A stretch of 64,000 bases of DNA from Escherichia phage vB_EcoP_G7C: sequence record NC_015933.1; one strand, given 5' to 3'. Each line of letters opens with the position of its first letter. Within the stretch, counting starts at the first letter, position 1. A model generated the notes under the pieces. That model was not told the origin of the DNA. It saw nothing but the letters and a program-made list of their open reading frames with translations, and searched no databases. Positions 32,911 through 45,200 of the stretch are shown here, in pieces. The translations under genes and the position numbers were made by a program.

Positions 32911-33360
32911 ATGCAAATCGTTCTGAACCAGTCTGAAGTAGAAGCTGCTATTGAAGCTTATGTAAATGAACAGGTTAATCTTGCCGGGGACATTAATATC
33001 CTGGTGAATGCAGATGGTACTGCCACCATTGGCATCAATGAAGAGGCCGGTCATAGTGATGACACTCCCCCCGTGGTAGAGAAGAGGACTCGTCGTTCTC
33101 GTAAGAATCCACAAGAAGCCAAACACCGTCCGGTAGAACCAGAACCAGTTGTTGGGGATGAAACTGAAGAAGAGGTAAAGGAAGAAGAAACCCAGACCTC
33201 TACTGGTGGTGTGAACGAGAGTTCTACGCCGGAACCTGAAGAAGCAGTAGCTGAACCAGAAGCACAAGAAGAAGTTGTGCAGGAGGAAGTTAAGGCAGAA
33301 GAACCAGCAGAGAAACCTGCTGCGAAGCCTTCACTGTTCGCTGGCCTAAAACGTAGTTAA
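32911..33360 (+). CDS. Highly acidic Glu/Pro-rich protein (149 aa)
   Basis: C-terminal two-thirds dominated by E, P, T, A; probably disordered. Confidence 0.5.
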   Translation: MQIVLNQSEVEAAIEAYVNEQVNLAGDINILVNADGTATIGINEEAGHSDDTPPVVEKRTRRSRKNPQEAKHRPVEPEPVVGDETEEEVKEEETQTSTGGVNESSTPEPEEAVAEPEAQEEVVQEEVKAEEPAEKPAAKPSLFAGLKRS

Positions 33361-33591
33361 TCTGGTAGGTGGCTCAGAAGCTGCTGCTAGGTGTGGTAGT
33401 GTTTATAGTACTGATGCTACTACTGGTCAGGATTATAGACGTGTCGGCTCCATACATAGCTTTTATCATCACTGTCATTATCCTGTGGAAATGCAGTGGT
33501 AAACACGGTGGTGACAAGCCGCCAGAATAACAACAACCGAGCCAGAGAGTTTTAATACTCTCCGAAGCTCTCTGGTTCATCTGAGGTATTT

Positions 33592-34089
33592 ATGAGCAAG
33601 CCATTAGGATACTGGAATAAACCTGCCCATGAACTCGCTGTAGTACATTCTCCCGATGATGCCAATGCAAAGGATGGATACATCAGTATTAAACGTCATG
33701 GGGTGAGGGTATTTCTGCACAACTGGATTTGGGAATACTATAATGGACCAATCCCGGATGGGTATGAAGTTGACCACATCAATGGAATCCCAACTGATTG
33801 TCGACTTATTAATATGAGACTGGTGTCCCATATGATTAACTGTCGCAATCGTCGCAAAAGAATTGACAATACATCCGGCGCTACCGGTGTGTATAGACAA
33901 TGGAAGAAGACTAATGAATATTGGACTGCTGCTTGGAATGACCCGCATACAGGTAAGCTACGAACTAAAAGCTTCAACATTGGTGTTCTTGGGGATAGCG
34001 AAGCCAAAGATGCTGCTATAGCATACCGGGCTACTATAGAAGCAGACCTGGTAAAGAATCACAACTACACCTTACGCCATGGAAGATAA
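33592..34089 (+). CDS. HNH homing endonuclease with AP2 domain (paralog 4)
   Basis: Collinear with 1836..2330 over full length (GYEVDHINGIPTDCRLINMRLV; NTSGATGVY...YWTAAW). Confidence 0.7.
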   Translation: MSKPLGYWNKPAHELAVVHSPDDANAKDGYISIKRHGVRVFLHNWIWEYYNGPIPDGYEVDHINGIPTDCRLINMRLVSHMINCRNRRKRIDNTSGATGVYRQWKKTNEYWTAAWNDPHTGKLRTKSFNIGVLGDSEAKDAAIAYRATIEADLVKNHNYTLRHGR

Positions 34090-34123
34090 ACTCTCCCCAG
34101 TCCATTGGTTCAACCGAGGCTGA

Positions 34124-34294
34124 TATGAACAAATTTACTATTCACTGGCTCAATGGAAAGGTTAGTTCTTTCATGGGTGGAGAACCTGCTGAAGGAAACA
34201 AAGCATTCCACATTGATTCAGAAGGCTGCAAAATCTTAATACCTTATGCTTGGTATAAAGGTGGTGAAGTTGAAGCATTGAAAAAGAGTAGTTA
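34124..34294 (+). CDS. Small hypothetical protein (56 aa), below track cutoff
   Basis: GAGG RBS 6 nt upstream of ATG. Confidence 0.3.
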
Positions 34295-34299
34295 ATATC

Positions 34300-35480
34300 G
34301 TGAAGGGTTCTGTTAGAATCCTTTGAGATAGGAACTCCTATCATAACCTTTCTTAACTTAATCTTTGCCGTATGGCACTGACGCTAGGGGTGGCCCCCCA
34401 TCCGTCAGACAGACTATTTTAAGAACCGGTTATCTCAGAAAATGTAAAGCAACATTCGGGTTAATCAATGGCCTCTCCTATAGGGGCCATTTCTGAATCT
34501 TAGGCTATATCCCAAAGGTTAGTATCTTTGGGATAAGGCTTCAGATCCCTTATCAAACTAACGCTCATGTTGAGCACAACATTAACCAATAATGTCGGAT
34601 AGTTCGTTACGCTATTCATCCAGCATCGAGTTGTTAGGTCTTACATGCAACATAGGGTAATGGGAGGATTCGTCCCCTCCCTCCTATTATGAACCAATTC
34701 GTGAGAACTCTTATCTTGGCTACCGGGAAAGGAGTGAAAAATGTTCGTAAACTACTCCCCAATTAGGTTCAACTCCTAAGCCAGGGTAAGTGTTCTCACT
34801 AATTGGAAAAATTAAGACGGGTCTGGTGAAGTAGATGGGGTTCGATTCCCTCCGGTGGAGTAATCCACTAGCGTGCTTGGTGCACGAATAAGACTTAATA
34901 CTGGTGGTTCGATTCCATCCCCCGTTACCCGAAGTCGCCAGGTACTTATGGCAAACGGGTAGTAACGAACTAGTCATTCGTCAAACGCCCACCCAATTAT
35001 GAGTCAGCAAGAACGCCTTCACTTAAACTTAAACAAAAAAGCTTAACGCAATAATTATGTAGGGGTATGTAAGGATTGCGAAGAAGGAGCCAGTTAGAGC
35101 CTGGCATGGCTCACCTATTGCATTACCAAGCCACTAGGCAAGTACTGTTAAGCAGTATACACGTTATGAGCCTCCTGGGGGCTAGTGGAAGTTGCCAACA
35201 TCAACGAGATGTCCTGTGTTGTCTCTGAGGCTGCTTGGTAGTGCATTCTAATCAGCAGTAACATAGTCCTGATTGCATAGCACTCTAAAGACAACACTGG
35301 TAAGACAGTCCAGTGGCTGCTAATGTATTGTTATTCCCCTCGACGGGAATTTCGCTAGTGAAGGTAACACTTAAAAATCCAAACCCACGTCTTACTACTA
35401 TCGGGCTATCAACCCACGGTCGCTTAACCCTGTAGTGATAGTAGTTTGACGGCCTGCCTCGTTGACTGCGTTAAAGTCAC
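34300..35480 (+). ncRNA. Candidate structured non-coding RNA region (ORF-free, hairpin-dense, two tRNA T-arm-like motifs); exact product and boundaries unknown
   Basis: No credible ORF in about 1.2 kb; GGTTCGATTCC at about 34839 and 34906; multiple perfect 6-10 bp hairpins; bounded by terminator at 35482. Confidence 0.35.
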
Positions 35481-35481
35481 T

Positions 35482-35519
35482 AAGTCCCTCGGAGCCGTCA
35501 CTCTGGGGGACTTTTTTAT
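35482..35519 (+). terminator. Intrinsic terminator closing the ORF-free region
   Basis: AAGTCCC...GGGACTT stem followed by TTTTTTATT. Confidence 0.55.
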
Positions 35520-35546
35520 TTGAGAACTACTTATTGGACGATTCAT

Positions 35547-35699
35547 ATGATTGACCTAATCTTAACCCCGTATGCCTATGAGGTAACGGATAACCGTGGA
35601 CGTAAGTCTTTGGTATTTGCAGGTAGCGTAGCCTATAACAACGCAGTCATGTTTAAATACAAACTTAAACCACTCTATGAGGCTAATAATGGAATTTGA
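35547..35699 (+). CDS. Small hypothetical protein (50 aa), below track cutoff
   Basis: ORF on + strand; weak RBS. Confidence 0.25.
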   Translation: MIDLILTPYAYEVTDNRGRKSLVFAGSVAYNNAVMFKYKLKPLYEANNGI

Positions 35700-35826
35700 T
35701 GATTTAGATTTTGAAGCTATCGAAAGGGCGAACCAGGAGAAACTGGAACAGGCTAATCGTGAAGCTGAAGAGTTAGAAAACGCTAAAGGCAACAACGATT
35801 GCACGAGTGGTGGTTGCACCATTTAG
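35689..35826 (+). CDS. Small acidic protein (45 aa, MEFDDLDFEAIERANQEKLEQANREAEELENAK...)
   Basis: GAGG RBS; overlaps previous stop; terminator downstream. Confidence 0.3.
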   Translation: MEFDDLDFEAIERANQEKLEQANREAEELENAKGNNDCTSGGCTI

Positions 35827-35905
35827 CAAACAGGTATATGGTAGTTTTTACCGAAAGGTACTGAACTACCCGACATGTGGTAAGGCTCGAGAAGCCAAAA
35901 CAAAA

Positions 35906-35931
35906 TAAGCCCTCCTAGTGAGGGCTTTTCC
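35906..35931 (+). terminator. Intrinsic terminator
   Basis: AAGCCCTC-CTAGTG-AGGGCTT then TTTCC. Confidence 0.5.
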
Positions 35932-35950
35932 ATATCTGTAGGAAACTATT

Positions 35951-36181
35951 ATGACGCAAGTATCTATTACCTCTGTTGTTCGTGAAGCCATTCTCAACAA
36001 TACTGTTCGTACATATTCGTTCGATGAAATCGCAGAGAAGCTAGGAGTAACCCGTTACGTGGCTAAGAAACTCTACTTCACTTTCCTGTGGTTCCCTACG
36101 GAAGAAACATTACGGAAGATTAAAGAAACTGGTAAATTTCCAAGTGAAGGACGCAAGCCTAAAATGTGGAAAACACCCTAG
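35951..36181 (+). CDS. Small putative HTH protein (76 aa)
   Basis: SFDEIAEKLGVTRYVAKKL helix-turn-helix-like; last + strand gene before the convergent junction. Confidence 0.45.
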   Translation: MTQVSITSVVREAILNNTVRTYSFDEIAEKLGVTRYVAKKLYFTFLWFPTEETLRKIKETGKFPSEGRKPKMWKTP

Positions 36182-36189
36182 CTTCTAAA

Positions 36190-36220
36190 AGCAAAGCCCC
36201 TCTTTTGAGGGGCTTTCTCA
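36190..36220. terminator. Bidirectional intrinsic terminator at the convergent junction of + and - transcription units
   Basis: AAAGCCCCTC-TTTTG-AGGGGCTTT flanked by A-run upstream and T-run downstream. Confidence 0.65.
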
Positions 36221-36222
36221 TT

Positions 36223-39200
36223 TTAGTTTACTAAGTTCATCCAAGGGTTTAGGTTGTGAGCACGAAGCCCCTGACCAAAGCCCCATGAGTAATCCAGACT
36301 ACCCTTAGCAGCAATACTAAAGATGTTGTCCTGAATAGGTAAGCCAACGTTACCAAACATGGTAGGAGTTGGAGCCAGCATCGCCATTGCTGCATGTACT
36401 GGGTTATTGCGAATCATGGACACTGCAACCTTAGCTGAACGAATCTTAAAGTTGTAGAACCACATTAAACCAACGCTTTCCATATACCCACGGAAACGGC
36501 CCGGCAGACGGTCATAGTTAATGAACTCTTCGGTTACACGTCCCAGTGCTTCTTCACGAGTCTTACCTTTACGCTGGGTCAATTCATCATAGATGATTGC
36601 TTTAGCGATAAAGTCAGAGTACTCAACCGTCTTCTGGATACCCTGGAACAGAGCAGTATCCTTAGTGATAAGTGCATAACGACCAGCAGCACGTACAGAC
36701 TTAGGTAACTTATCCGCCAGCTTTTCCATGTATTCGTGAAGTTTACCTTCAGTAATCAGGATGTCATCACGACCAATACCAGCATCTGCAATTGAAGAGA
36801 ACTCACCAGCTTCTATCAGAGGCCAGATACTCATACGCTTATGGCTATCAGTAATGGACTGAATCTCAGCCTTAAGTTTACGAATCTGGTTCGGGTTAGT
36901 AGCTGCACGTAATTCTGCTTCTGCATCTACCTGACGTAAACGAGATTTAAGGTATTGGTTAATCTCAGCAGTCTTCCGTGGAATGCTCTTAGCAATGTTC
37001 TTAACCGGTACACCACGAGCAACCATCTGGTAAAGGTTAGCCAAAAAGTTAACAACAGGTACGACTACTGACTTAACTACAATCAGAGTCTTAGCATCTT
37101 TAACTAAATTTTGAACCAGGTTCTCACCACCCATTAAGTACTTATAGGCACGGTTACCGGCTAAACCCAGAATAGCTTTTTTAAAAGTATTAAGCGTTTC
37201 CGGGGACCAACGAGAATTACCAGACCAAGCATCACCAATCGAAGCTGCACGATAGCCAAGTGCATCATTCAGCATGTCACGACGTACCCACAGTTCACCC
37301 TCACCAAACAGTTTTTCTGCTTTCCGTCGAGTTTCACTGTTCATCAGCTTAAGAGCATCAGCAGTTACTGGGTCCAGTTTAGAACCAAAAAGGTTCACGT
37401 ACTGGGACTTATTAGCAGCAGACATCTTAATGTCTTCCTTGTACATGCTATACAGGTTCTCAATCAGCATATCATTGAAACGCTGAGCCTTAGCTTCTTC
37501 CACCTGACGTCCACGCCATACACCAATTGCACGGGCAAGATGATTTTCACCTTCAATATGCTTCAGCATATTAGGGTTAATTGATTGCTCATAAGCAACC
37601 ACATCACCTTTAGCATTATATACAGGCAGCAGTGGTTCATTACCACGTTCACCACGAGCTAGTGCTTTAGCGATACGGTCTACAGAAGGCTTGTCAGTAA
37701 TACGACCAGCTACCATGGAACCCATAGTAAAGCCTGTACCGAGGTCTACACCACCAGCAGTATTACGAACGTTCTGTAGAATACCTTGTGAGAACGGAGC
37801 CTGTGCCTGTACTGGGGCAAAGTAGTAGCTACGTGCCAGACCTCGGTTAGCAGAGCTACCTTGATAAGTACCCAGACGAACATAGGACTTCTCTATCAAA
37901 TCACCAAACTCGCTATCTTCAGCAACAACCAGACTAACACCCTGTTTAGTCTCACTAGGGATATACCCTTTGTACTGGTTCAGGGTTGCACGCATATCAG
38001 ACTTGGCTTTAGCCATTTCATCTTTACGCTGCCCAACCAGGTAAGAAGTAGCAAAGTCCATTCCCTCAACTTCTGTCTGAGCCAGTGAAGATAACATCTC
38101 ACGGTCGGACTTGTTCATTGCTTCCAGTGCATACAGGGTAATAAGTTTATCCAGTTGAGCTACATCTACAATAGAACGAGTAGTCTTACGTTCACCCAGC
38201 ATACGAGAGATTGCAGTAGCATTACGCAGCAAGTTTTTACCGACTGTGCCATTAATCATGTACTGAGCCAGTTGCTTAGATTTACGGTTAATCAGAGGCC
38301 AGTTACGACCAGCTTGTTTCTGCAAATCTGCTTCCAGCTTATTCACTTCACGGTCAACAATCTTCTGGTCTGAAAGCAGGTCACGAATTTCAGCCAGAGA
38401 CATGGTGTCACGCAGGACAGCTAAGTCAGTTTTACCCATACCAGTGTACATTGCTTTCCACTCATCCTTAGTCAGCTTACGGCTGAACTTAGATGCGATA
38501 GTGGTAGGCAGGTGTTCACGGAACTGCTGACGGTCAGCCTGCACCTGTGCACGGACTGCTTTAATCAAATCGTATACAGAAGCATTGCTCTTAGTACGAC
38601 CGGTTAAATCATTAACCAGGTCATGGAAAGGTTGCCATACTTTACCCTGGTTCATTGCAACCATAACGCCTTCAGCTACGTTTGCACCATTCTTCTCTGT
38701 AGCAATAGCAGCCATTAGTTGTGCAGCATGAGCAGCACCTTTGACCAATGGGTTCTTGGTATTAGCTGCAACTTCACGAGCACTTTCTAAAACACGAGTA
38801 GACAGTACATCAATAGAGTCCACCAAATACTGGTTAGCACGGTCAATAGCATTACCACTAGGAGTAGCAACGGAATCATAGAATGACTGTGCATTTAGGC
38901 TAGTCTGCATGATTGTTTGAGCCAGTGCATCCATACCTTCCTGTACGTTGGTAGCTTTGGTATCACCTGCTACACGAGCATTCAGACTAGCCATTGCAGC
39001 AGTACCAATGTTAGTCAGCATTGCATCAACGGTATTCCCAGATTTCTTATCTGCTTTCATAACAGGAATGTTAGCCAGTACGTTACGTACCTCTTCACTT
39101 ACCATTGCCAGACCAACAAAGGTAGGCAGTATTGAAGAACGACCCTGTGCATCAAACTCAATATTGTTAGCACCCATGATGGTATCGAACTTCTGCTGTG

Positions 39201-42200
39201 CATAGTAACGGTCAGCAGGGTTAGTACTATCTGGGTCAGTCATGAATGATTCAACAGTCAGGTTCTTAGTAACGTGTGCATAGTATTCCTGTGCACGAGA
39301 AAGAGCAGCCGGACTAATAGCAGCTTCAGTAGCGAGTGCAGCAACAATGTTAGTAAAGAGACGCTGCTCCTGCATATTCATAGTGAAGCCATGAGCCTGA
39401 ACATCACGGGTTACTTTAGTTGCGTGCTTTTTCGCATCAGAGAACTTACCTTCACGGATTACTTGCTGTACTGGTTCTGAACCAATGTAGTTAGTAATCA
39501 GCTTATCAAATGTCTGTCCTAACTCTTCCAGACGGGTATTGTCACCATATGCTTTGTTATGGAACAAAGTAGTATCTTTGGCTACAGCAGCAGTAGGAGC
39601 CTGCCCACGCATAACAACTGAAGAGTTAAACAGTAAGCCAGAGAACATATCATCAGCATTAGCAGGTGCTTCTTCACGACCAAATACCAGTCGCTTGATT
39701 GCTTCATATACAGACTGAATCATAACTTTCAGTGCTGTGGTCTTCTTCTGCTTACTAATTAGCTCCTGGTTAGTTAAACCCCATGCCATGTACTCATTTA
39801 ATGCAGCAGCTTTAGCTATTGCTGGTTCAATATAGCCATTAGACAAGTAGCCGTTAATGGTATAGAGGGCATCGGCATATGCTTCACGTACTTCCGGAGA
39901 TTCATCCTTAACATCCAGAGCAAGGAACTGGTTCATCAGGTCTTCGATATTCTGGACTGCTTCGTTAGGAGTACCCTCATAGTGAGCCAGTACAGATTCA
40001 AAAGTAGAAGCATGTACCAATTCATGAACCAGAGTCTCTAAGGAAGGGGTGACTAAGTAGATGGTCTTATCATCAAAGTTAGTCCAGCCGTATGTATTAC
40101 CTGCTTCGGCAGCTTCAATATCTTCTGGTGCTGGACGGGTAATGTTCTTCTCAATAGCGTAAGCATCCAATTGAGCAGGAGTACCGTAAACAACCTTGTA
40201 GTCTTTAGCAGCAAGGGATTTCTGTACTTCTTTCAATACTGCTTGCTGTTCAGGAGACATTTCTTTAGCCAGCTTAGTGATAGCAGTATTAGACAACAGA
40301 CGTACACCAGACTTAAGTACACGACCAACTTGTTCCATTGCTGGCACTTCTTTAACAGGTGCTTCTTTCACTGGTTCTGCTTTAGCAGCACGTACTGCAT
40401 CACGACGCTTGTTTAATTCAGCATCGAACAGTTCGTTCAGCTTAGCTACTTGCTGGTCTACAGTCAGACCTTCCAGAGAAATTTTACCGTTGTTCACATA
40501 TGGAGCACCTACAGCAGCCATCTGGTCAACAGTAGTCTGTACTTGGTTCATTACTTTGTGGCGAATATCTACACCCAGAGCAATGTTTCGCAAGTTACGC
40601 TCAATGAGGTTAACACCGGAATTCTTAATCATATCAATCTTATACTGCCTGTCCCCTTCAACACGACTGATATGAGAAAGCTGTTCAAAATCTAAAGCGG
40701 AACGGGCAATGTCATCAATTGTCTTATCCGACAACTTATCAAAGTCTACGTTCTTCATGAACTTAGAGAAGGAGTCATACACGTTCTTAATAGGGTTGCC
40801 CTGCCAAGAAGTATATACAGCCTCGTTAGCTTTACGACTTGCATCAGTGATGTCACTGATACCAATGTTCATACCATCAAAGATTTTCAGGGTATTCTTA
40901 GGAGCACCTTTCATAGTAGAAAGGGTCTGCATCATCATGCCATCACCAGTACCAATGGTCATAAACGGAATACCTGCAACACCTGCTTGTGAAGGAGCAT
41001 AGATGCTCATTGGCACACGCATACGGTCATCTAAGTTGGTAGCCAGTACTTGGTTAGCAACGTCAGTACTCTCACTGCCAGCAAGGTAGAAAGTCTGTGA
41101 GCCAGTCTCAATCATTGGGGCCAGTGGAGATAATGATTCCTGGATTTCATTCAGTTCTTTCTGTGTTAAGAAATCACCCTTCTTCCAGGTTGGGTCTTTT
41201 TCTTTTTCTGCTAGCTTAGTCTGTACTGCTTGTTGGAACATATCCTGCAATACCAGAGACTGAATCTGAGTAGCCTTCTGCAAGTTCTCAGTAGAGTACA
41301 TCAGACCTTCACCAACAGTATTACGGATACCGGTACGCATTGGTTCAACGAACAAATGGAGCATGTTCTCTTGTAAGTTCTTCAGAGCATTACCGGATAC
41401 GGTAAATTTCTGAGGGTTTAACTTACCAGTCAGAGCACCATCTACTTCCTTAATAAATAACTTACCTTTGCGCTTAGCTGGAATTTTACCAGTCAGTGCT
41501 TCCATAGAAGTAAGGAAAGTATCCAGCATAGCCTGAGCATCAGCCTCAGACGCAGCCTCCTTACCAAACATTGCCATAGCCGGGGAAATGCTAGGGTCAG
41601 CAGCACGTGCTTGCAGAACGTCGCTGAAGCGTTCGTAGATGGTGTCAGTAATTGCACCGACTATATTACCAGCAATACCACGTGCACCAGCACCATAGAT
41701 GGTAATGGTAAGCGGGTTTTTAGCGATACCACGTTTCAGGTCCAGAGTACCATCTTCATTCAGGTTAAAGTCTTTAATGAACAGGTCCATTAACTTCTGG
41801 AGATGATTTATCTGGTTTATAACTGGAACGTTGTTACGGTAAGTAGTACGTAACGCATTCAGTGCTTGTTGCAGACCATTGGTAGATGCTTCATACAAGT
41901 CAACATTATCGTCGATAGAACAATGTTCGTTCATCGTTTTACCAGCACGACCGAAGAACAAACCACCTTTGGCAGTATTCTTAATCCAGTCTGGGGTGAA
42001 CTTACCACCAGTCATTAATACCATTGCGTTGATTGGGCCGTTGGTTACACCATCAGCTTCAACGTACAGAGGGGTAGTAAAATTAGCACGGTCATCACTG
42101 TTCAGGTAACGGGCATATTCCATCAGGGCCATGAGAGCTACGAAGGATTTGTTATCACCCAGAGAGGTTTTCAGAATATCTACTGCATCAGTAGGTAAAT

Positions 42201-45200
42201 AACCAGACTTATCAAACTCAACCATCATATCAACAGCAGGTTTCAAATTACCTTCCAGAGCTTTGGTCAGATTTTCAGACATAGCTTCACGGGACATTTT
42301 ATGTACCTTGATGCCCAATGCCTGAGCCAGACCTAACTGGAAGTCAGAGAATGCTTGGCTGTTTTCATTACTCAAGTCGATAGTGGAGAAGGTTGGCAGA
42401 ATTGCTTCACGAACCAGTTTACTGGATTGTGGGTTATTCTTACCAAGCATCTGCATACGACCTACACGGGTCATGTTGTAACCGTAGTGAATGGGGGTAT
42501 CCAAACCATTCTCTTGTTCTTTTAGCTGATTAATTAAACCGAACAAAGAATCATATGCCATAGATACCGATAAGTTCTTACCTTCCAGAGATTTGGCAGT
42601 GTTTTCATTCAGCAAATCAGGATTAAGAGAACCAGCACCCATCAGTTCCAGAATGCCGTCTCGGCCTAATGCTTCATAGAAGTTAACCATCGGCATGTGT
42701 ACACGGAACTCCGTAGCCTGTTCAGCTTTCAAAGCAGCTTTCTGTTCCGGGGTATTCCTAACAGCAGGGTTACGTAACTGAGTTTGAGCCACGGAAGGAA
42801 TGTCATCACCGAAGTACGTTTTCTCTTCCGGATTTACCAGCACAGCTTCCTCAATTGCTGTAGGGAAATTATTAATAGGGTCTTTATCTGCCAACTTATT
42901 AATAGTGTACAGACCAATAGTCTTATTAGAGTCCGGGTCAATCTCAGACACATCCAGCATAGTCTCAGTAACTGCACCCATCTCGATGAGGGAAGACAGA
43001 ATCTCTGTAGCCATTGCCGCTGGAATACCCTTGGTATAACCCAGTGGTGCATTAGGGTTACGGTTTAAACCCCAGTAGGATTCAATCTTTTGAGCCAGTG
43101 AGTTAGTAGCCTCAACCAGAGTCTGGGCATTCTCAAACTCAGTCAGAATACTTTCTGGTAACAGAGATGCATCTACACCAGTAATAGCAGCCACGTCTTT
43201 CATGTCTTTAATGGCAGCATTCTGTGTAGCAGTCAGTCGCCATTGCAGACCGGCAAGTACAGCAGTCTCTAACAACTGATCATTGAACTTAAAGGTATCT
43301 CCATCTTTCTCTACGATGTTAAGTAACTTACCACTTACCCAACGGTTAGCTTCAGTACCTTCTGCAAAACGTTTACCAACGTTCTTATTAGCAAGGAACT
43401 TAGCCAGTCGTTTAGACAGAGTAGCCTTCAGAGTTTCCCCAAAGTCCATCAAGTCTTGATAGCGTTCTAACACATCACCTGCGAGAACGTTATTTTCTTT
43501 TTGAGTGAATGCTTCAAAGCGAGCAGCAGAAGACAGTGCTTTCTTGATATCAGCCAAAGGAGATTCAGAACCAATGGTACGGGACTTAGGTTCTTCCGGT
43601 AGGGTAAATGCCTTCAGGAACTGGTTCGGTGTCTTCTCATTGTTATAGACAGGGAACACTGCTTCCATTCCAGAAAGAGGTTTGCCACCCACTGTATAGT
43701 CTGCTTTCAGCTGAGCCAGTGATACCTCATCTTCCTCCACGTTGTTAGTGTTAAGACCAGAGGTATCTACACCAACCAGAATATGTGCATTATTGGCTTC
43801 AACGAAAGATTGAACAGTATTGAATTGTTCAGCAGTCAGTTTCTGATCATCGAACAGCTGTAAGGACACAAACGGTTGTTCGCTGCCTTTATAGAACATA
43901 GAGCGAATAGCACCTGTATCCAGAGACATATCACGATAACCATCATGACCAAATACATCGGACAGGCTGATATGGTCGCCATTAGAGCCAACCACAGTAC
44001 CATCAGCAAACAGCCATGGACTCTCTCTACGATCACCATACTTATTAAGAGTTTCCTGTGAAATAGTATTTTCTTTCACATAAGCATCTCTTTCAGATTC
44101 GGTAGGTTGCTCGATGGTATCCTCATTAGTAAGGGTAGCATCATCTACAACCGGGCTAGCCTTTTCAGACTTAGGTACTTTCTCTTCCTGTACAGGTGTA
44201 ACTTCTGGCTGGGAGAATGTATTACGTACATAGTTCATAAAATCATTACGTGCTTGGGAAGGGGAAGACCATACTTCCCGTGTGCTACGTAAACTAAAGA
44301 TTCGACCTTCAGGAGTCATTACGTAAGGTACATTTGTTTTACCGTACTTAAATGAAGTGAGTACATCTGACTTACCAGTAACAGTGCTTTCCCCTGGAAT
44401 GACAATAGTCTTACCACCAGTAGAAGGAACAGCACGAACACCCTCAATATCCTTACCAAGAGAAATATACTCTTTACCGTTGTAATCAAAGTACTGACCT
44501 ATCTGCATATAGGTAGCTTGTTGCTTACCAGTAAACTCAGCAGTTTTCATCTCCGGGCCGTTAGGTACAGACGTACTTTCAGACTTAGGCTTAGATACTT
44601 TCTCTGGTTCTGACTTAGACTCTACAGTGTTAGGGGCAGTCTCTTTTGCTTCGACTGGTGCAGTTTTTGACTGTACAGTAATGGCTGGTTCCTGTGTTTT
44701 TACAGGTGTTTCATCAACCTGATTCACTGGTTCATTAGTCTGTTGGGACTGAGTGGCATTAAGACCACCTTGACGGAACTCTTTAACTACCTGGGCAGCT
44801 GGCTTGTTCAGACGTGAATCCAACGAGGTAACTTTCACATGAGAAACATTAAGCTCCGGGTAAGCCGTAGCAAGTGCATTAGCAATATCAGCTACGGTTT
44901 TGGCCTCCAGTGCTACTTGCTGGGCAAACTTAACAGACTTGGTATCATAAGGATTAACACCGAGGCCAGTACGACTACGTACCCATTCACGGGTAGGCGT
45001 GAGAGCCTGATAATGAACAGACTTATTCTTATCCGCATTCCCCGAAATCAGATGCTCATTCAACGCTCCGACCTTATTCTGCATGTGCTGGGCGAACTTC
45101 ATAAAATCGCTCAGATAAGCGGAAGCCAAATCGAAGTTACCAGAGTTATACGCAGAACGAATGCGTTTCGCATGTTGCAACGCAGAGTACTGTCCTTCAT

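What the first reader, a model, noticed from the sequence alone, without database searches (positions are those of the whole stretch)
34300..35480. 1.2-kb ORF-free, hairpin-dense region with duplicated tRNA T-arm-like motif: candidate undescribed structured RNA locus
The genome is otherwise tightly packed with overlapping start/stop codons, yet about 1.2 kb here has no ORF over 60 codons on the + strand and only one low-complexity antisense ORF. The stretch is full of perfect stem-loops: AGGGTTCT/AGAATCCT near 34305, palindrome GATAGGAACTCCTATC near 34330, AATGGCC...GGCCATT near 34470, a 10-bp stem TATCCCAAAG-GTTAGTAT-CTTTGGGATA at 34507-34534, GGGAGG...CCTCCC near 34665, and a GTAA-capped 6-bp hairpin at 34854-34869. 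Two copies of GGTTCGATTCC(C/A)TCC, matching the tRNA T-loop consensus, lie 67 nt apart (34839-34849 and 34906-34916). I tried to fold both into cloverleaves (acceptor pairing, D-arm, anticodon arm) and failed, so they are not ordinary tRNA genes. They may be tRNA-like processing modules, decayed tRNAs, or parts of a larger RNA. A strong AAGGAG RBS precedes a 12-codon ORF at 34751-34789 (leader-peptide-like). The region ends with an intrinsic terminator at 35482-35519, consistent with a discrete transcript.
Basis: seen in the sequence. Interest (0 to 1): 0.8.

Follow-up and report, generated by a model that had tools for sequence, protein, structure and literature searches.

The report
Array of phage tRNA-like RNAs
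This 1.2-kb gene-free stretch of an N4-like coliphage is the phage's "tRNA locus": it has no true tRNA left, but it keeps a chain of conserved, folded, partly tRNA-like RNAs of unknown function that also occur in unrelated phages.

Summary
Window 34296-35519 has no credible ORF and folds far better than shuffles. It contains the only three tRNA T-loop matches in the 64 kb and ends in an intrinsic terminator.

The window is a Gamaleyavirus (G7C/N4-like). The interval sits where N4 has its tRNA cluster. Relatives carry tRNA-Ile(AAU), other tRNAs and a tmRNA-like tag unit here. This phage has none of them.

What remains is a + strand array of six modules (M1-M6):
- Both "duplicated" T-arm motifs belong to one 115-nt five-helix tRNA-like RNA, M3 (34816-34930).
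- A third T-arm belongs to a 113-nt long-stem RNA, M2 (34694-34806).
- M5 (35120-35244) fills the slot that holds tRNA-Ile in relatives.

M2, M3 and M5 keep their helices through many compensatory changes. Homologs occur in other N4-like genera, and for M2 and M3 also in T4-like phages, always in tRNA arrays. Part of M1 recurs in phiEco32-like phages. G·U pairs favour the + strand 56 to 6.

The modules match no Rfam family and are unannotated or mis-annotated in GenBank. They were not found in bacterial genomes. The "leader peptide" ORF is not conserved.

Function is unknown. Processing by tRNA-maturation enzymes and a tRNA-mimic role are inferences.

The parts
34296..34695 (+). M1: about 400-nt structured RNA module. 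It holds hairpins at 34303-34323, 34327-34342, 34467-34491 and 34497-34546, and a 3' stem carrying a T-arm-like GGGAGG/CCTCCC hairpin. In this phage it is fused to an ACCA-ATTC junction.
   Evidence: MFE z = -6.4. The 5' half is nearly invariant in 9 Gamaleyaviruses. The first hairpins and the 3' domain recur in phiEco32-like phage SU7 (L010 1870-2095) at 82-86% identity. The alifold of the 3' domain gives 36 pairs, 4 with double changes.
34694..34806 (+). M2: 113-nt long-stem tRNA-like RNA. It has a roughly 25-bp irregular closing helix, a hairpin at 34731-34758 with a 16-nt conserved loop, and a T-arm at 34763-34779 (TTAGG-TTCAACT-CCTAA).
   Evidence: Alignment A1 has 9 sequences from 4 phage groups. 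Of 35 pairs, 94.3% of cells are paired and 12 pairs have double changes; 0 of 500 shuffles reach this, and slid controls give 0-3. z = -6.4 on + against -3.9 on -. CM R2 scores 138.5 bits on + against 34.2 on -.
34741..34779 (+). 12-codon ORF with an upstream AAGGAG. This is a chance ORF inside the M2 hairpin and T-arm, not a leader peptide.
   Evidence: The frame is not conserved. N4 has a +2-nt indel after ATGTT, and TG1 stops after 7 codons (alignment).
34816..34930 (+). M3: 115-nt five-helix tRNA-like RNA. It comprises an acceptor-like stem (34816-34821 with 34921-34926), T-arm-like hairpin 1 (34837-34851), a GNRA hairpin (34854-34869), hairpin 3 (34872-34886), T-arm 2 (34903-34919) and the tail A-CCC (34927-34930).
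   Evidence: Alignment A2 has 9 sequences, including a T4-like phage and a Klebsiella N4-like phage. Of 26 pairs, 97.8% of cells are paired and 12 pairs have double changes spread over all five helices; 0 of 500 shuffles reach this, and slid controls give 0-2. CM R1 scores 158 bits, and the next-best hits are canonical tRNAs at 13-22 bits.
34931..35118 (+). M4: structured spacer module. Its 3' hairpin GCCAG-TTAGAGC-CTGGC has a 5-bp stem and a 7-nt loop, and it lies just before the insertion slot.
   Evidence: It is 94-99% identical in Gamaleyaviruses. The 3' hairpin has compensatory variants in N4 (GTTGG-TAAGAAT-CCAAC) and in Klebsiella phages (GCTGG-TAAGAAT-CCAGC), read directly. No formal test was run.
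35120..35244 (+). M5: 125-nt RNA closed by a 12-bp stem. It occupies exactly the slot that holds tRNA-Ile(AAU) in relatives.
   Evidence: The slot was mapped by pairwise BLAST. In the GenBank collection searched, only three records of two Erwinia N4-like phages (phiEaP8, Fifi051) hold a homolog; in phiEaP8 it lies between tRNA-Asp and tRNA-Ile. For the two-sequence alignment A8, 28 pairs are 98.2% paired, 10 pairs have double changes, and 0 of 500 shuffles reach this.
35246..35481 (+). M6: conserved 3'-terminal RNA module with the core GCAGTAACATAGTCCTGA...CTCTAAAGACAA...GGTAAGACAGTCC.
   Evidence: Homologs at 72-79% identity occur in N4, Moo19 (directly after its last tRNA), Jgk1 and Klebsiella N4-likes. 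The alifold of the core gives 20 pairs, 4 with double changes.
35482..35519 (+). Intrinsic terminator ending the RNA locus.
   Evidence: 13-bp stem, 7 G-C pairs, followed by TTTTTTATTT. It is conserved in relatives.
34125..34295 (+). Upstream flanking gene (56 aa); left boundary of the locus.
   Evidence: phrog_14773, E = 1e-42. It is annotated as a CDS in relatives.
35520..35699 (+). Downstream flanking gene (59 aa as listed; probably starts at the ATG at 35547); right boundary of the locus.
   Evidence: phrog_34266, E = 7e-22.

Best explanation
The interval is the phage's stable-RNA (tRNA-operon) locus. It corresponds to the tRNA cluster that N4 carries between gp47 and gp48.

Shown:
- It is a + strand, ORF-free chain of six structured RNA modules (M1-M6) closed by an intrinsic terminator.
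- This phage has no canonical tRNA.
- M2, M3 and M5 are structurally constrained RNAs. Their helices are kept by compensatory substitutions in distant phages, where they sit inside tRNA arrays.
- M2 and M3 are tRNA-like: each has an acceptor-like closing stem plus canonical T-arm(s), but no D-arm and no anticodon arm.
- Cassettes are gained, lost and swapped at fixed junctions.

Inferred:
- The array is transcribed with the neighbouring + strand genes.
- It is cut into small stable RNAs by the host enzymes that mature tRNA and rRNA precursors: RNase P at acceptor-like stems, RNase E and exonucleases plus CCA repair at 3' ends, and RNase III at the 12-25-bp closing helices. This is how T4 makes its tRNAs and its stable RNAs C and D.
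- The tRNA-like products act as tRNA mimics that occupy a host tRNA-binding factor, such as a tRNA-targeting defence nuclease, a tRNA-processing or modification enzyme, or the trans-translation machinery. They do not decode codons.
For: Identity of the phage:
- The window has a 3754-aa virion RNAP ORF.
- The interval is 94% identical to Gamaleyavirus phages.

Synteny:
- N4 has tRNA-Asn, Ser, Thr and Pro in the same gp47-gp48 gap.
- Moo19, Jgk1, Klebsiella and Erwinia N4-likes hold 3-5 tRNAs there.
- Relatives have tRNA-Ile exactly where M5 lies, and a 375-790-nt cassette block where the window has the M1/M2 junction.

Structure:
- M2 has 12 covarying pairs.
- M3 has 12.
- M5 has 10.
- Shuffles and slid controls fall far below these values.

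Strand:
- G·U cells outnumber A·C cells 56 to 6.
- The M2 model scores 138.5 bits on + against 34.2 on -.

tRNA-likeness:
- All three T-loop consensus hits of the 64 kb lie here.
- The M3 model's next-best hits are real tRNAs.
- M2 is labelled 'tRNA-Undet' in three N4-group records.
- M3 tails read ACCC, ACCT or ACCA in different phages.

Horizontal spread:
- M3 is in 40 records, including about 11 T4-like phages, where it lies between tRNA-Met and tRNA-Arg.
- M2 is in 29 records, including Yersinia T4-likes.
- Part of M1 is in phiEco32-like phages.

Not host-derived:
- There is no match in 5,426 E. coli genomes.
- The one M2 pattern tried has no exact match in 100,044 species genomes.

Precedent: T4 rnaC and rnaD lie inside its tRNA cluster.
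Against: - No expression or end-mapping data were available, so transcription, processing and stability are all inferred.
- The covariation rests on few independent lineages (4-5 for M2 and M3, 2 for M5). The shuffle counts are therefore not probabilities.
- M1 and M4 have almost no informative variation.
- The covariation-supported M3 fold is not the single-sequence MFE fold (z only -1.9).
- The window's modules lack an encoded CCA. M3 ends in ACCC.
- No promoter could be assigned. Sigma-70-like sites are not enriched (6 found against 5.5 expected).
- Nothing tested here identifies a binding partner. The decoy idea is a guess, based on shape and on the accessory, fast-turnover behaviour of the cassettes.
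Confidence: 0.72

Rival explanations
1. The interval is a graveyard of decayed tRNA genes. The T-arm motifs and hairpins are neutral remnants of a tRNA cluster this phage no longer needs.
For: Relatives have real tRNAs at this locus, and this phage has none. ARAGORN at an 80% threshold gives three poor overlapping cloverleaves. Cassettes are frequently lost.
Against: M2, M3 and M5 keep every helix through double substitutions across phage families at 75-83% identity. Their single-stranded loops are invariant. The same non-tRNA architectures recur in genomes that also hold intact tRNAs. The M1 5' half is better conserved than the neighbouring genes.
Confidence: 0.08
2. The window holds a degenerate, circularly permuted tmRNA gene. 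It would run: T-arm 2, acceptor 3' strand CCCCGTT-ACC, a loop, the 5' strand AACGGG, then a tag frame at 34987-35046 (AHPIMSQQERLHLNLNKKA*).
For: ARAGORN at -ps80 proposes exactly this, and the same frame appears in relatives. Relatives do carry a real ssrA-like tag elsewhere in the locus. Rfam tmRNA matches the T-loop at 34838-34850 (10.9 bits).
Against: - It is called only at 80% of ARAGORN's threshold, and nothing is found at default settings or at Rfam gathering scores.
- The 3' strand CCCGTT covaries with the upstream strand in four lineages: GACGGG, GGTGGG, GGCAAG and TCATGGCG.
- The VR5 and JZBo1 homologs lack the downstream partner and the 'tag'.
- The peptide ends in NKKA, not a hydrophobic ssrA-type C-terminus.
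- No element in the window has a G3:U70 pair.
- The genuine tag sequence is absent from the window.
Confidence: 0.04
3. The inverted repeats act in DNA, not RNA. They would be cruciforms for replication or recombination, or terminal inverted repeats of miniature mobile elements that insert into tRNA arrays.
For: The modules are bounded by 12-28-nt inverted repeats. They behave as mobile cassettes between phage families. A homing endonuclease gene lies next to the locus.
Against: - Wobble pairs are strand-specific: 56 G·U against 6 A·C.
- The M2 covariance model prefers the + strand by about 100 bits.
- The closing stems are the most variable part of each family while the interiors are conserved. 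This is the opposite of transposon terminal repeats.
- Internal helices and T-arms also covary.
- All copies are co-oriented with tRNAs.
Confidence: 0.06
4. The interval is a cis-regulatory leader or attenuator with a leader peptide, or it encodes several tiny proteins as annotated in some relatives.
For: AAGGAG lies 6 nt before an ATG at 34741. Mimir124 and Bas96 annotate 7-10 'hypothetical proteins' across the homologous stretch.
Against: The 12-codon frame is broken in N4 and TG1. No internal ORF matches a PHROG family. Other annotations of the same sequence call none of these ORFs. Indels between relatives are not multiples of three. A terminator lies at the 3' end of 1.2 kb, not ahead of a regulated gene.
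Confidence: 0.03

Closest known systems
Phage T4 stable RNAs C and D (rnaC / species 1, rnaD / species 2) in the T4 tRNA cluster
   Same: They are small non-coding RNAs of unknown function encoded inside a phage tRNA gene array on the tRNA strand. rnaC carries a T-arm motif (CCGGGTTCGAATCCCGG) near its 3' end. That they are matured together with the tRNAs is established knowledge, not tested here.
   Different: There is no sequence homology beyond the T-loop and one 10-12-mer. M3 has two T-arms and five helices. T4-like phages that carry M3 or M2 carry them in addition to rnaC or rnaD homologs (VR5 has rnaD, TG1 has rnaC).
Canonical tRNA (Rfam RF00005)
   Same: M3 has an acceptor-like stem of 6-8 bp closing the molecule, a 5-bp T-stem with a GTTCGAnTC loop abutting the 3' strand, and a discriminator-like A followed by CC(C/T/A). 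tRNAs are the next-best matches of the M3 model.
   Different: There is no ARAGORN call and no Rfam tRNA hit even at E <= 10. There is no D-arm and no 7-nt anticodon loop. M3 is 113-115 nt long and has an extra T-arm-like hairpin and a GNRA hairpin.
tmRNA and its tRNA-like domain, including TLD-only phage forms (mycobacteriophage DS6A; PMC4131195, PMC11915505)
   Same: The M2 core sits directly upstream of an ssrA-like tag (ANDDVVLMAA*) in Pylas, FSL SP-058, KpCHEMY26 and metagenomic contigs. The M2 T-loop UUCAACU equals that of E. coli tmRNA (from memory). A tag-less tRNA-like piece recalls the DS6A TLD-only RNA, which is reported to inhibit tmRNA.
   Different: The window has no tag, no G3:U70, no CCA, and no Rfam or ARAGORN tmRNA call. 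In other tag units the M2 core is replaced by unrelated inserts, so it is not an obligatory part of that unit.
Bacterial Y RNAs (YrlA) with a tRNA-like domain
   Same: The architecture of M2 is similar: a long closing helix formed by the 5' and 3' ends, capped by a domain with a T-arm.
   Different: No Rfam family of any kind matches. The Ro/Rsr-binding motif was not examined. As far as I know E. coli K-12 has no Rsr; that is from memory and was not tested.
Large ornate phage-associated ncRNAs next to tRNAs (GOLLD, ROOL)
   Same: They are structured non-coding RNA occupying hundreds of nucleotides beside tRNA genes in phage genomes.
   Different: There is no Rfam match. This locus is a chain of separate 110-400-nt cassettes rather than one large RNA.

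Membership tests
tRNA | Recognised by tRNA detectors (ARAGORN; Rfam RF00005 at gathering score) | tested here: not met
   There are 0 genes in the window. There is no Rfam hit at gathering score and no tRNA hit at E <= 10 in 33500-36000. Only poor, overlapping calls appear at ARAGORN -ps80.
tRNA | T-arm: 5-bp stem and 7-nt loop with a GTTCRANYC-type sequence, abutting the acceptor 3' strand | tested here: met
   M3 T-arm 2 (34903-34919) and the M2 T-arm (34763-34779) both meet this. The stems are 100% paired, with double changes in M3. The motif is enriched: 3 found against 0.13 expected.
tRNA | D-arm, and an anticodon arm with a 7-nt loop | tested here: not met
   M3 has a 14-nt unpaired linker, a T-arm-like hairpin, a GNRA hairpin and a hairpin with a 5-nt loop. 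M2 has a 10-nt linker and a hairpin with a 16-nt loop.
tRNA | 7-bp acceptor stem with discriminator and 3' CCA (encoded or added) | tested here: inconclusive
   The M3 stem is 6 bp plus a conserved mismatch, and it covaries. The tail is ACCC in the window, ACCA in ShWW44, ACCT in JZBo1 and GCCT in UE-M6. The M2 'acceptor' continues into a longer helix.
tmRNA (standard or permuted) | Detected by ARAGORN or by Rfam tmRNA models at threshold | tested here: not met
   The only hit is a 13-nt T-loop match of 10.9 bits against a gathering score of 47.
tmRNA (standard or permuted) | Tag reading frame with an Ala resume codon and an ssrA-type C-terminus | tested here: not met
   The tag GCAAACGAYGA... 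of relatives is absent from the window. The -ps80 pseudo-tag ends in NKKA.
tmRNA (standard or permuted) | Alanine identity pair G3:U70 in a CCA-ended acceptor stem | tested here: not met
   A scan for a 7-bp acceptor plus T-arm plus NCCA finds nothing in window 33001-36300.
Group I intron, or known large ncRNAs (GOLLD, ROOL, OLE, HEARO) | Match to the Rfam covariance model | tested here: not met
   No family is reported for the window at gathering score, or at E <= 10 for 33500-36000.
Leader-peptide attenuator | Conserved short ORF whose translation controls a downstream terminator or antiterminator | tested here: not met
   The ORF at 34741-34779 is frame-shifted in N4 and truncated in TG1. 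It lies inside a covarying hairpin and T-arm.
T4 rnaC / rnaD stable RNAs | Sequence homology to T4 rnaC or rnaD | tested here: not met
   blastn-short finds only the T-loop and a 10-12-mer (E = 0.009-0.5) in the window, while true homologs are found in VR5 and TG1.
T4 rnaC / rnaD stable RNAs | Non-tRNA RNA gene embedded in, and co-oriented with, a phage tRNA array | tested here: met
   Homologs of M2, M3, M5 and M6 lie between or next to tRNAs in VR5, TG1, N4, phiEaP8, Pylas, FSL SP-058 and Moo19.
T4 rnaC / rnaD stable RNAs | Accumulates as a stable processed small RNA in infected cells | not testable with these tools
   No expression data were available.
YrlA / Y RNA | Ro(Rsr)-binding helix motif and association with rsr | not tested
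   The only evidence is the absence of any Rfam hit.

The most novel reading that the evidence does not exclude
M2, M3 and the other cassettes would be a new class of horizontally mobile phage 'tRNA-mimic' RNA genes. On this reading they are matured by the host tRNA machinery and act as decoys or inhibitors of host tRNA-binding factors, such as tRNA-cleaving defence nucleases or the tmRNA-SmpB rescue system. The locus would then be an RNA-based counter-defence island. It is shuffled between N4-like and T4-like phages, with one M1 domain also in phiEco32-like phages, at conserved CCA-spacer junctions.
Probability: 0.2. Interest if true: 0.85.

Novelty: new variant of a known kind. Interest (0 to 1): 0.6.

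Why it matters
Phage tRNA clusters are usually read as codon-usage or anti-defence tRNA supplies, and whatever is not called as a tRNA is ignored. This analysis points to several things.

- **Unrecognised RNA families.** The "empty" DNA between and instead of tRNAs in N4-like phages holds at least three RNA families (M2, M3, M5) with strong comparative support for structure. M2 and M3 are shared with T4-like phages. None is in Rfam. GenBank records leave them unannotated, or label them "tRNA-Undet", or cover them with small spurious ORFs.
- **A natural experiment.** A phage that has lost every true tRNA yet keeps these RNAs shows that they are not mere spacers or processing signals for tRNAs.
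- **Possible roles.** If they are tRNA mimics, they would add an RNA layer to phage-host conflict over tRNAs and ribosome rescue.
- **Practical use.** The covariance models and coordinates can correct the annotation of more than 100 therapeutic-candidate coliphage genomes.
- **A lead in relatives.** An undetected tmRNA-like gene sits in relatives of this phage and deserves its own study.

Tried and rejected
1. Ordinary or borderline tRNAs. ARAGORN default and Rfam find none. The calls at -ps80 overlap each other and contradict the covarying helices.
2. tmRNA in the window. Rejected; see the rival explanation.
3. Homology to T4 rnaC or rnaD. None found.
4. Any Rfam family. There are 0 hits at gathering score. 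The four sub-threshold hits are noise or a bare T-loop.
5. Protein-coding. No PHROG family matches any internal ORF.
6. Host origin. There is no match in 5,426 E. coli genomes. Two exact-pattern scans of 100,044 species genomes found nothing.
7. More diverse homologs from IMG/VR and metagenomes. The patterns returned mostly the same isolates or Gamaleyavirus contigs plus chance hits, so the covariation could not be deepened that way.
8. My own dinucleotide-shuffle script timed out. The strand folding replaced it.
9. Literature. No paper in the held library describes tmRNA or tRNA-like RNAs in N4-like phages. 'tmRNA' appears there only as an ARAGORN method mention. The 2025 tmRNA database paper reports 79 phage sequences, but its list is not held.
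10. Long-range pairing of the M1 3' end TTATGA with 34343-34348 was considered. The alignment favours a local stem with CATAGGG instead.
11. The 'ACCA' after M1 is not an M1 feature. It is the tail of a cassette that was deleted in this phage.
Full report
**What the window is**

A 3754-aa ORF on the minus strand at 36223-47487 is the hallmark virion RNA polymerase of N4-like phages. The interval 34090-35540 matches 141 phage records, best at 94% to Escherichia phages Mimir124 and F22. Both are classified as Schitoviridae, Enquatrovirinae, Gamaleyavirus. An IMG/VR isolate contig of 72,917 bp (L017) is 100% identical over the part it covers.

**Checking the observation**

Between the stop codon of a 56-aa gene (34125-34295, phrog_14773) and a 59-aa gene (35520-35699, phrog_34266) there is no + strand ORF above 50 aa. 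There is one 85-aa antisense ORF. None of six internal ORFs matches a PHROG family.

The region folds much better than dinucleotide shuffles:
- z = -6.4 for 34296-34695.
- z = -6.4 for 34694-34806.
- z = -3.4 for 34931-35520.

The two GGTTCGATTCC(C/A)TCC copies lie at 34839 and 34906, 67 nt apart. A third T-loop match, GGTTCAACTCC at 34766, was missed. These three are the only matches to GGTTCRANTCC in the 64 kb, against 0.13 expected.

ARAGORN finds no tRNA or tmRNA. Rfam finds nothing at gathering scores and only noise at E <= 10. The terminator at 35482-35513 is confirmed. The 12-codon ORF is at 34741-34779, ten bases left of the stated position.

**Context: this is the tRNA locus of N4-like phages**

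In N4 the gap between gp47 and gp48 holds tRNA-Asn, Ser, Thr and Pro. Moo19, Jgk1, Klebsiella and Erwinia N4-likes hold 3-5 tRNAs at the same place.

Pairwise BLAST against seven Gamaleyavirus relatives shows three conserved blocks: w34090-34692, w34801-35119 and w35248-35692. Two variable junctions separate them.

- Junction B. Relatives carry tRNA-Ile with anticodon AAU (65 bits to RF00005), sometimes with a second tRNA. The window instead carries an unrelated 125-nt sequence, M5.
- Junction A. Relatives carry 375-790 nt that the window lacks. This includes a tmRNA-like tag unit (described below).

This phage therefore has no canonical tRNA at all. The EC1-UPM genome paper reported the same for that relative (PMC3853248).

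**Module M3 (34816-34930): both 'duplicated' T-arms belong to one RNA**

Homologs were aligned from seven Gamaleyaviruses, the T4-like phage VR5 (80% identity) and the Klebsiella N4-like phage JZBo1 (75% identity). The alignment shows five helices:
- An acceptor-like closing stem, with these variants: GACGGG/CCCGTT; GGTGGG/CCCACT; GGCAAG/CTTGCC; TCATGGCG/CGCTATGA.
- A T-arm-like hairpin (34837-34851).
- The GTAA hairpin (34854-34869).
- A hairpin with a 5-nt loop (34872-34886).
- A canonical T-arm (34903-34919) that abuts the 3' strand.

These are followed by A-CC(C/T/A). Of 26 pairs, 97.8% of cells are paired, and 12 pairs show double changes spread over all five helices. No shuffle out of 500 reaches this, and slid controls give 0-2.

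A covariance model (R1) finds one copy in the window at 158 bits. Its next-best matches are genuine tRNAs at 13-22 bits.

M3 occurs in 40 GenBank phage records: 26 Gamaleyaviruses, Klebsiella N4-likes, and about 11 T4-like phages (VR5, VR25, Edwardsiella PEi20/26, Citrobacter CkP1). It is never annotated as an RNA. In VR5 it lies between tRNA-Met and tRNA-Arg.

**Module M2 (34694-34806)**

A roughly 25-bp irregular helix closes a domain made of three parts:
- A 10-nt linker.
- A 6-bp hairpin with an invariant 16-nt loop.
- The T-arm TTAGG-TTCAACT-CCTAA.

Nine sequences were aligned: the window, Moonfish, N4, Yersinia T4-like TG1, Klebsiella Pylas and KpCHEMY26, Salmonella FSL SP-058, and two metagenomic contigs. 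They give 35 pairs with 94.3% of cells paired and 12 pairs with double changes. No shuffle out of 500 reaches this, and slid controls give 0-3.

The closing helix is the most variable part and the interior the most conserved. The + strand scores 138.5 bits with model R2 and the - strand 34.2. Some N4-group records label the element 'tRNA-Undet'.

AAGGAG is the 5' strand of the hairpin and the ATG is in its loop. The frame is shifted by a 2-nt indel in N4 and ends after 7 codons in TG1.

**Module M5 (35120-35244)**

Its only database relatives are in two Erwinia N4-like phages, phiEaP8 and Fifi051 (three records). In phiEaP8 it lies between tRNA-Asp and tRNA-Ile. The two sequences share 28 pairs, 98.2% paired. 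Ten pairs changed on both sides, including 5 of the 12 pairs of the closing stem, and a U·G wobble is kept at the same position.

**Modules M1, M4 and M6**

*M1 (34296-34695).* It has the strongest fold signal. Its 5' half is almost invariant among nine Gamaleyaviruses, while the flanking coding DNA is 88-94% identical. Its first hairpins and its 3' domain recur at 82-86% identity in phiEco32-like phages such as SU7, in an intergenic gap. A few compensatory changes are seen.

*M6 (35246-35481).* It is conserved at 72-79% identity in N4, Moo19 (directly after the last tRNA), Jgk1 and Klebsiella N4-likes. Four pairs covary in its core.

*M4.* It has little informative variation. Its 3' hairpin shows compensatory variants in N4 and in Klebsiella phages, read directly.

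*The insertion slot.* The slot between M4 and M6 is empty in N4. It holds tRNA-Ile in most Gamaleyaviruses, M5 in the window, and other tRNA-like inserts in Klebsiella phages.

**Strand, molecule and origin**

In the M2 and M3 helices there are 56 G·U cells and 6 A·C cells. This is the asymmetry expected for a + strand RNA, not for DNA cruciforms or for a - strand RNA.

The whole interval has no match in 5,426 complete E. coli genomes. Exact-pattern scans of 100,044 species genomes found neither M2 nor the tag-unit scaffold. Within the limits of those searches, the RNAs appear confined to phages.

**How it most likely works**

Shown: this is an ORF-free, terminator-closed + strand array of structurally constrained RNAs at the tRNA locus. 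Two of them are tRNA-like, and they exchange as cassettes.

Inferred from established tRNA-operon biology and from the T4 precedent (rnaC and rnaD inside its tRNA cluster): the array is transcribed as a precursor and cut by host enzymes.
- RNase P would cut at acceptor-like stems.
- RNase E and exonucleases, with CCA repair, would finish 3' ends.
- RNase III could cut the 12-25-bp closing helices.

In relatives, many cassettes end in an encoded ACCA followed by AT(TC). This fits tRNA-type 3' maturation. It also suggests that recombination between these short shared junctions shuffles the cassettes.

The function of the mature RNAs is not known. My best guess is tRNA mimicry that occupies a host tRNA-binding factor. 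The reasons are these:
- The RNAs keep the acceptor and T-arm face of a tRNA, but nothing that could decode.
- They have invariant loops.
- They turn over like accessory genes.
- M2 is physically linked to a tmRNA-like unit in other phages.

This last step is speculation.

**The tmRNA-like unit in relatives (absent from the window)**

All seven Gamaleyavirus relatives first examined carry a constant scaffold. So do Pylas, KpCHEMY26, FSL SP-058, JZBo1, Kpn16-P2, Jgk1 and several metagenomic contigs. The scaffold has these parts:
- A long hairpin, ACATCCTATCAATGAGTACAC[variable insert]GTGTACTCTTTGATAG.
- A conserved linker.
- The frame GCA AAC GAT GAT GTT GTT CTG ATG GCN GCN TAA. It encodes ANDDVVLMAA*, with variants ANEEAYLMVA*, ANDDVILMAA* and ANDDVVLMVA*.
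- A hairpin with the stop codon in its loop.
- An H-type pseudoknot whose stems covary.
- A 7-bp minihelix ending in (A/G)CCA.

These are documented. The last two Ala codons vary synonymously (GCAGCC, GCGGCG, GCTGCT, GCGGCT), as expected if the frame is decoded.

Rfam's permuted-tmRNA model scores it 23-39 bits, below the gathering score of 47. ARAGORN misses it at default settings.

In the Pylas-type units the variable insert is the M2 core. In the others it is unrelated. No canonical tRNA-like domain with G3:U70 is attached, so I call it tmRNA-like and not a tmRNA.

The window lacks this unit, and also the 124-nt and 66-nt CCA-ended tRNA-like RNAs that accompany it in relatives.

**Comparison with known systems and novelty**

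The closest known kind is the set of small stable RNAs embedded in phage tRNA clusters (T4 RNAs C and D), and tRNA-like RNAs in general. M2, M3 and M5 are not homologous to those and fail the tests for tRNA, tmRNA, introns and leader peptides.

I found no description of them in Rfam 15 or in the held literature. I therefore rate them a new variant of a known kind. They are real and structured, and I found no prior description, but they fall within an established category, and their function is open.

**Limits**

- No expression data were available.
- The covariation rests on few independent lineages.
- M1 and M4 are supported mainly by fold energy and conservation.
- E-values from my models are rough.

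Noticed in passing
L001 2127-2377 (F22); L015 1995-2275 (Pylas); L016, L029, L031, L032, L037 and others. Absent from the window.: An unannotated tmRNA-like unit in many N4-like phages. It has an ssrA-like tag (ANDDVVLMAA* or ANEEAYLMVA*) with synonymous variation, a hairpin with the stop codon in its loop, a covarying pseudoknot and a CCA-ended minihelix. It has no canonical tRNA-like domain. It scores below the Rfam and ARAGORN thresholds.
   Followed up: partly
L001 2379-2502; L011 (N4) 1441-1506; also L002, L006, L007, L032: Two further unannotated tRNA-like RNA families with an encoded ACCA. One is 124 nt (TACCAGT...ACTGGTA, with compensatory variants TATCAGT/ACTGATA and TACTGGT/ACCAGTA). 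The other is a 66-nt mini form (TCCGGTG...CGCCGGA) that directly precedes M2 in N4 and Moonfish.
   Followed up: partly
L001 2937-3012, L002 3303-3378, L013 2610-2688 (the slot equal to window 35120-35244): The only canonical tRNA of most Gamaleyaviruses is a tRNA-Ile with the unusual anticodon AAU (A34). This is not a normal bacterial isoacceptor.
   Followed up: no
window 33592-34089, with flanks 33552-33598 and 34086-34132: A free-standing HNH_3 + AP2 homing-endonuclease ORF is inserted here relative to all relatives examined. It is bracketed by a roughly 45-nt imperfect direct repeat that duplicates the hairpin and start region of the next gene.
   Followed up: partly
window 35700-36220: The stretch between the RNA locus and the virion RNAP gene is about 0.8 kb shorter than in F22. 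Most of the N4 gp48-like gene and its neighbours is missing; some relatives' records annotate neighbouring genes as anti-CRISPR (Mimir124) or Thoeris anti-defence 2-like (Moonfish).
   Followed up: no
L029 (Klebsiella phage JZBo1), about 1845-1925: In the same slot as M5 and tRNA-Ile there is a tRNA-like sequence GGGGTCG...CGACTCC-ACCA. It has a G3:U70 pair and discriminator A (alanine identity) but an aberrant T-loop. ARAGORN does not call it.
   Followed up: no
window 34290-34530: The 5' half of M1 is almost invariant among nine Gamaleyaviruses, while neighbouring coding DNA is 88-94% identical. A sigma-70-like promoter with an extended -10 (TTAATA-16-TGTTAGAAT, 34292-34319) overlaps its first hairpin.
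   Followed up: no
window 34359-34372 compared with T4 rnaC and rnaD (L012): T4 rnaC and rnaD both share a 10-12-mer, AATCTTTGC(C)G, with M1 (E = 0.009-0.12). This may be chance or a shared processing or binding motif.
   Followed up: no
L015 640-715 (Klebsiella phage Pylas): A tRNA with anticodon CUA (amber-suppressor type, annotated tRNA-Pyl) lies in the tRNA array upstream of the tag unit.
   Followed up: no
window 36193-36216: A hairpin (AAAGCCCCTC TTTT GAGGGGCTTT) was detected as a + strand terminator and sits between the converging + strand genes and the - strand virion RNAP gene; from its palindromic stem it could act in both directions, but no minus-strand site was reported there.
   Followed up: no
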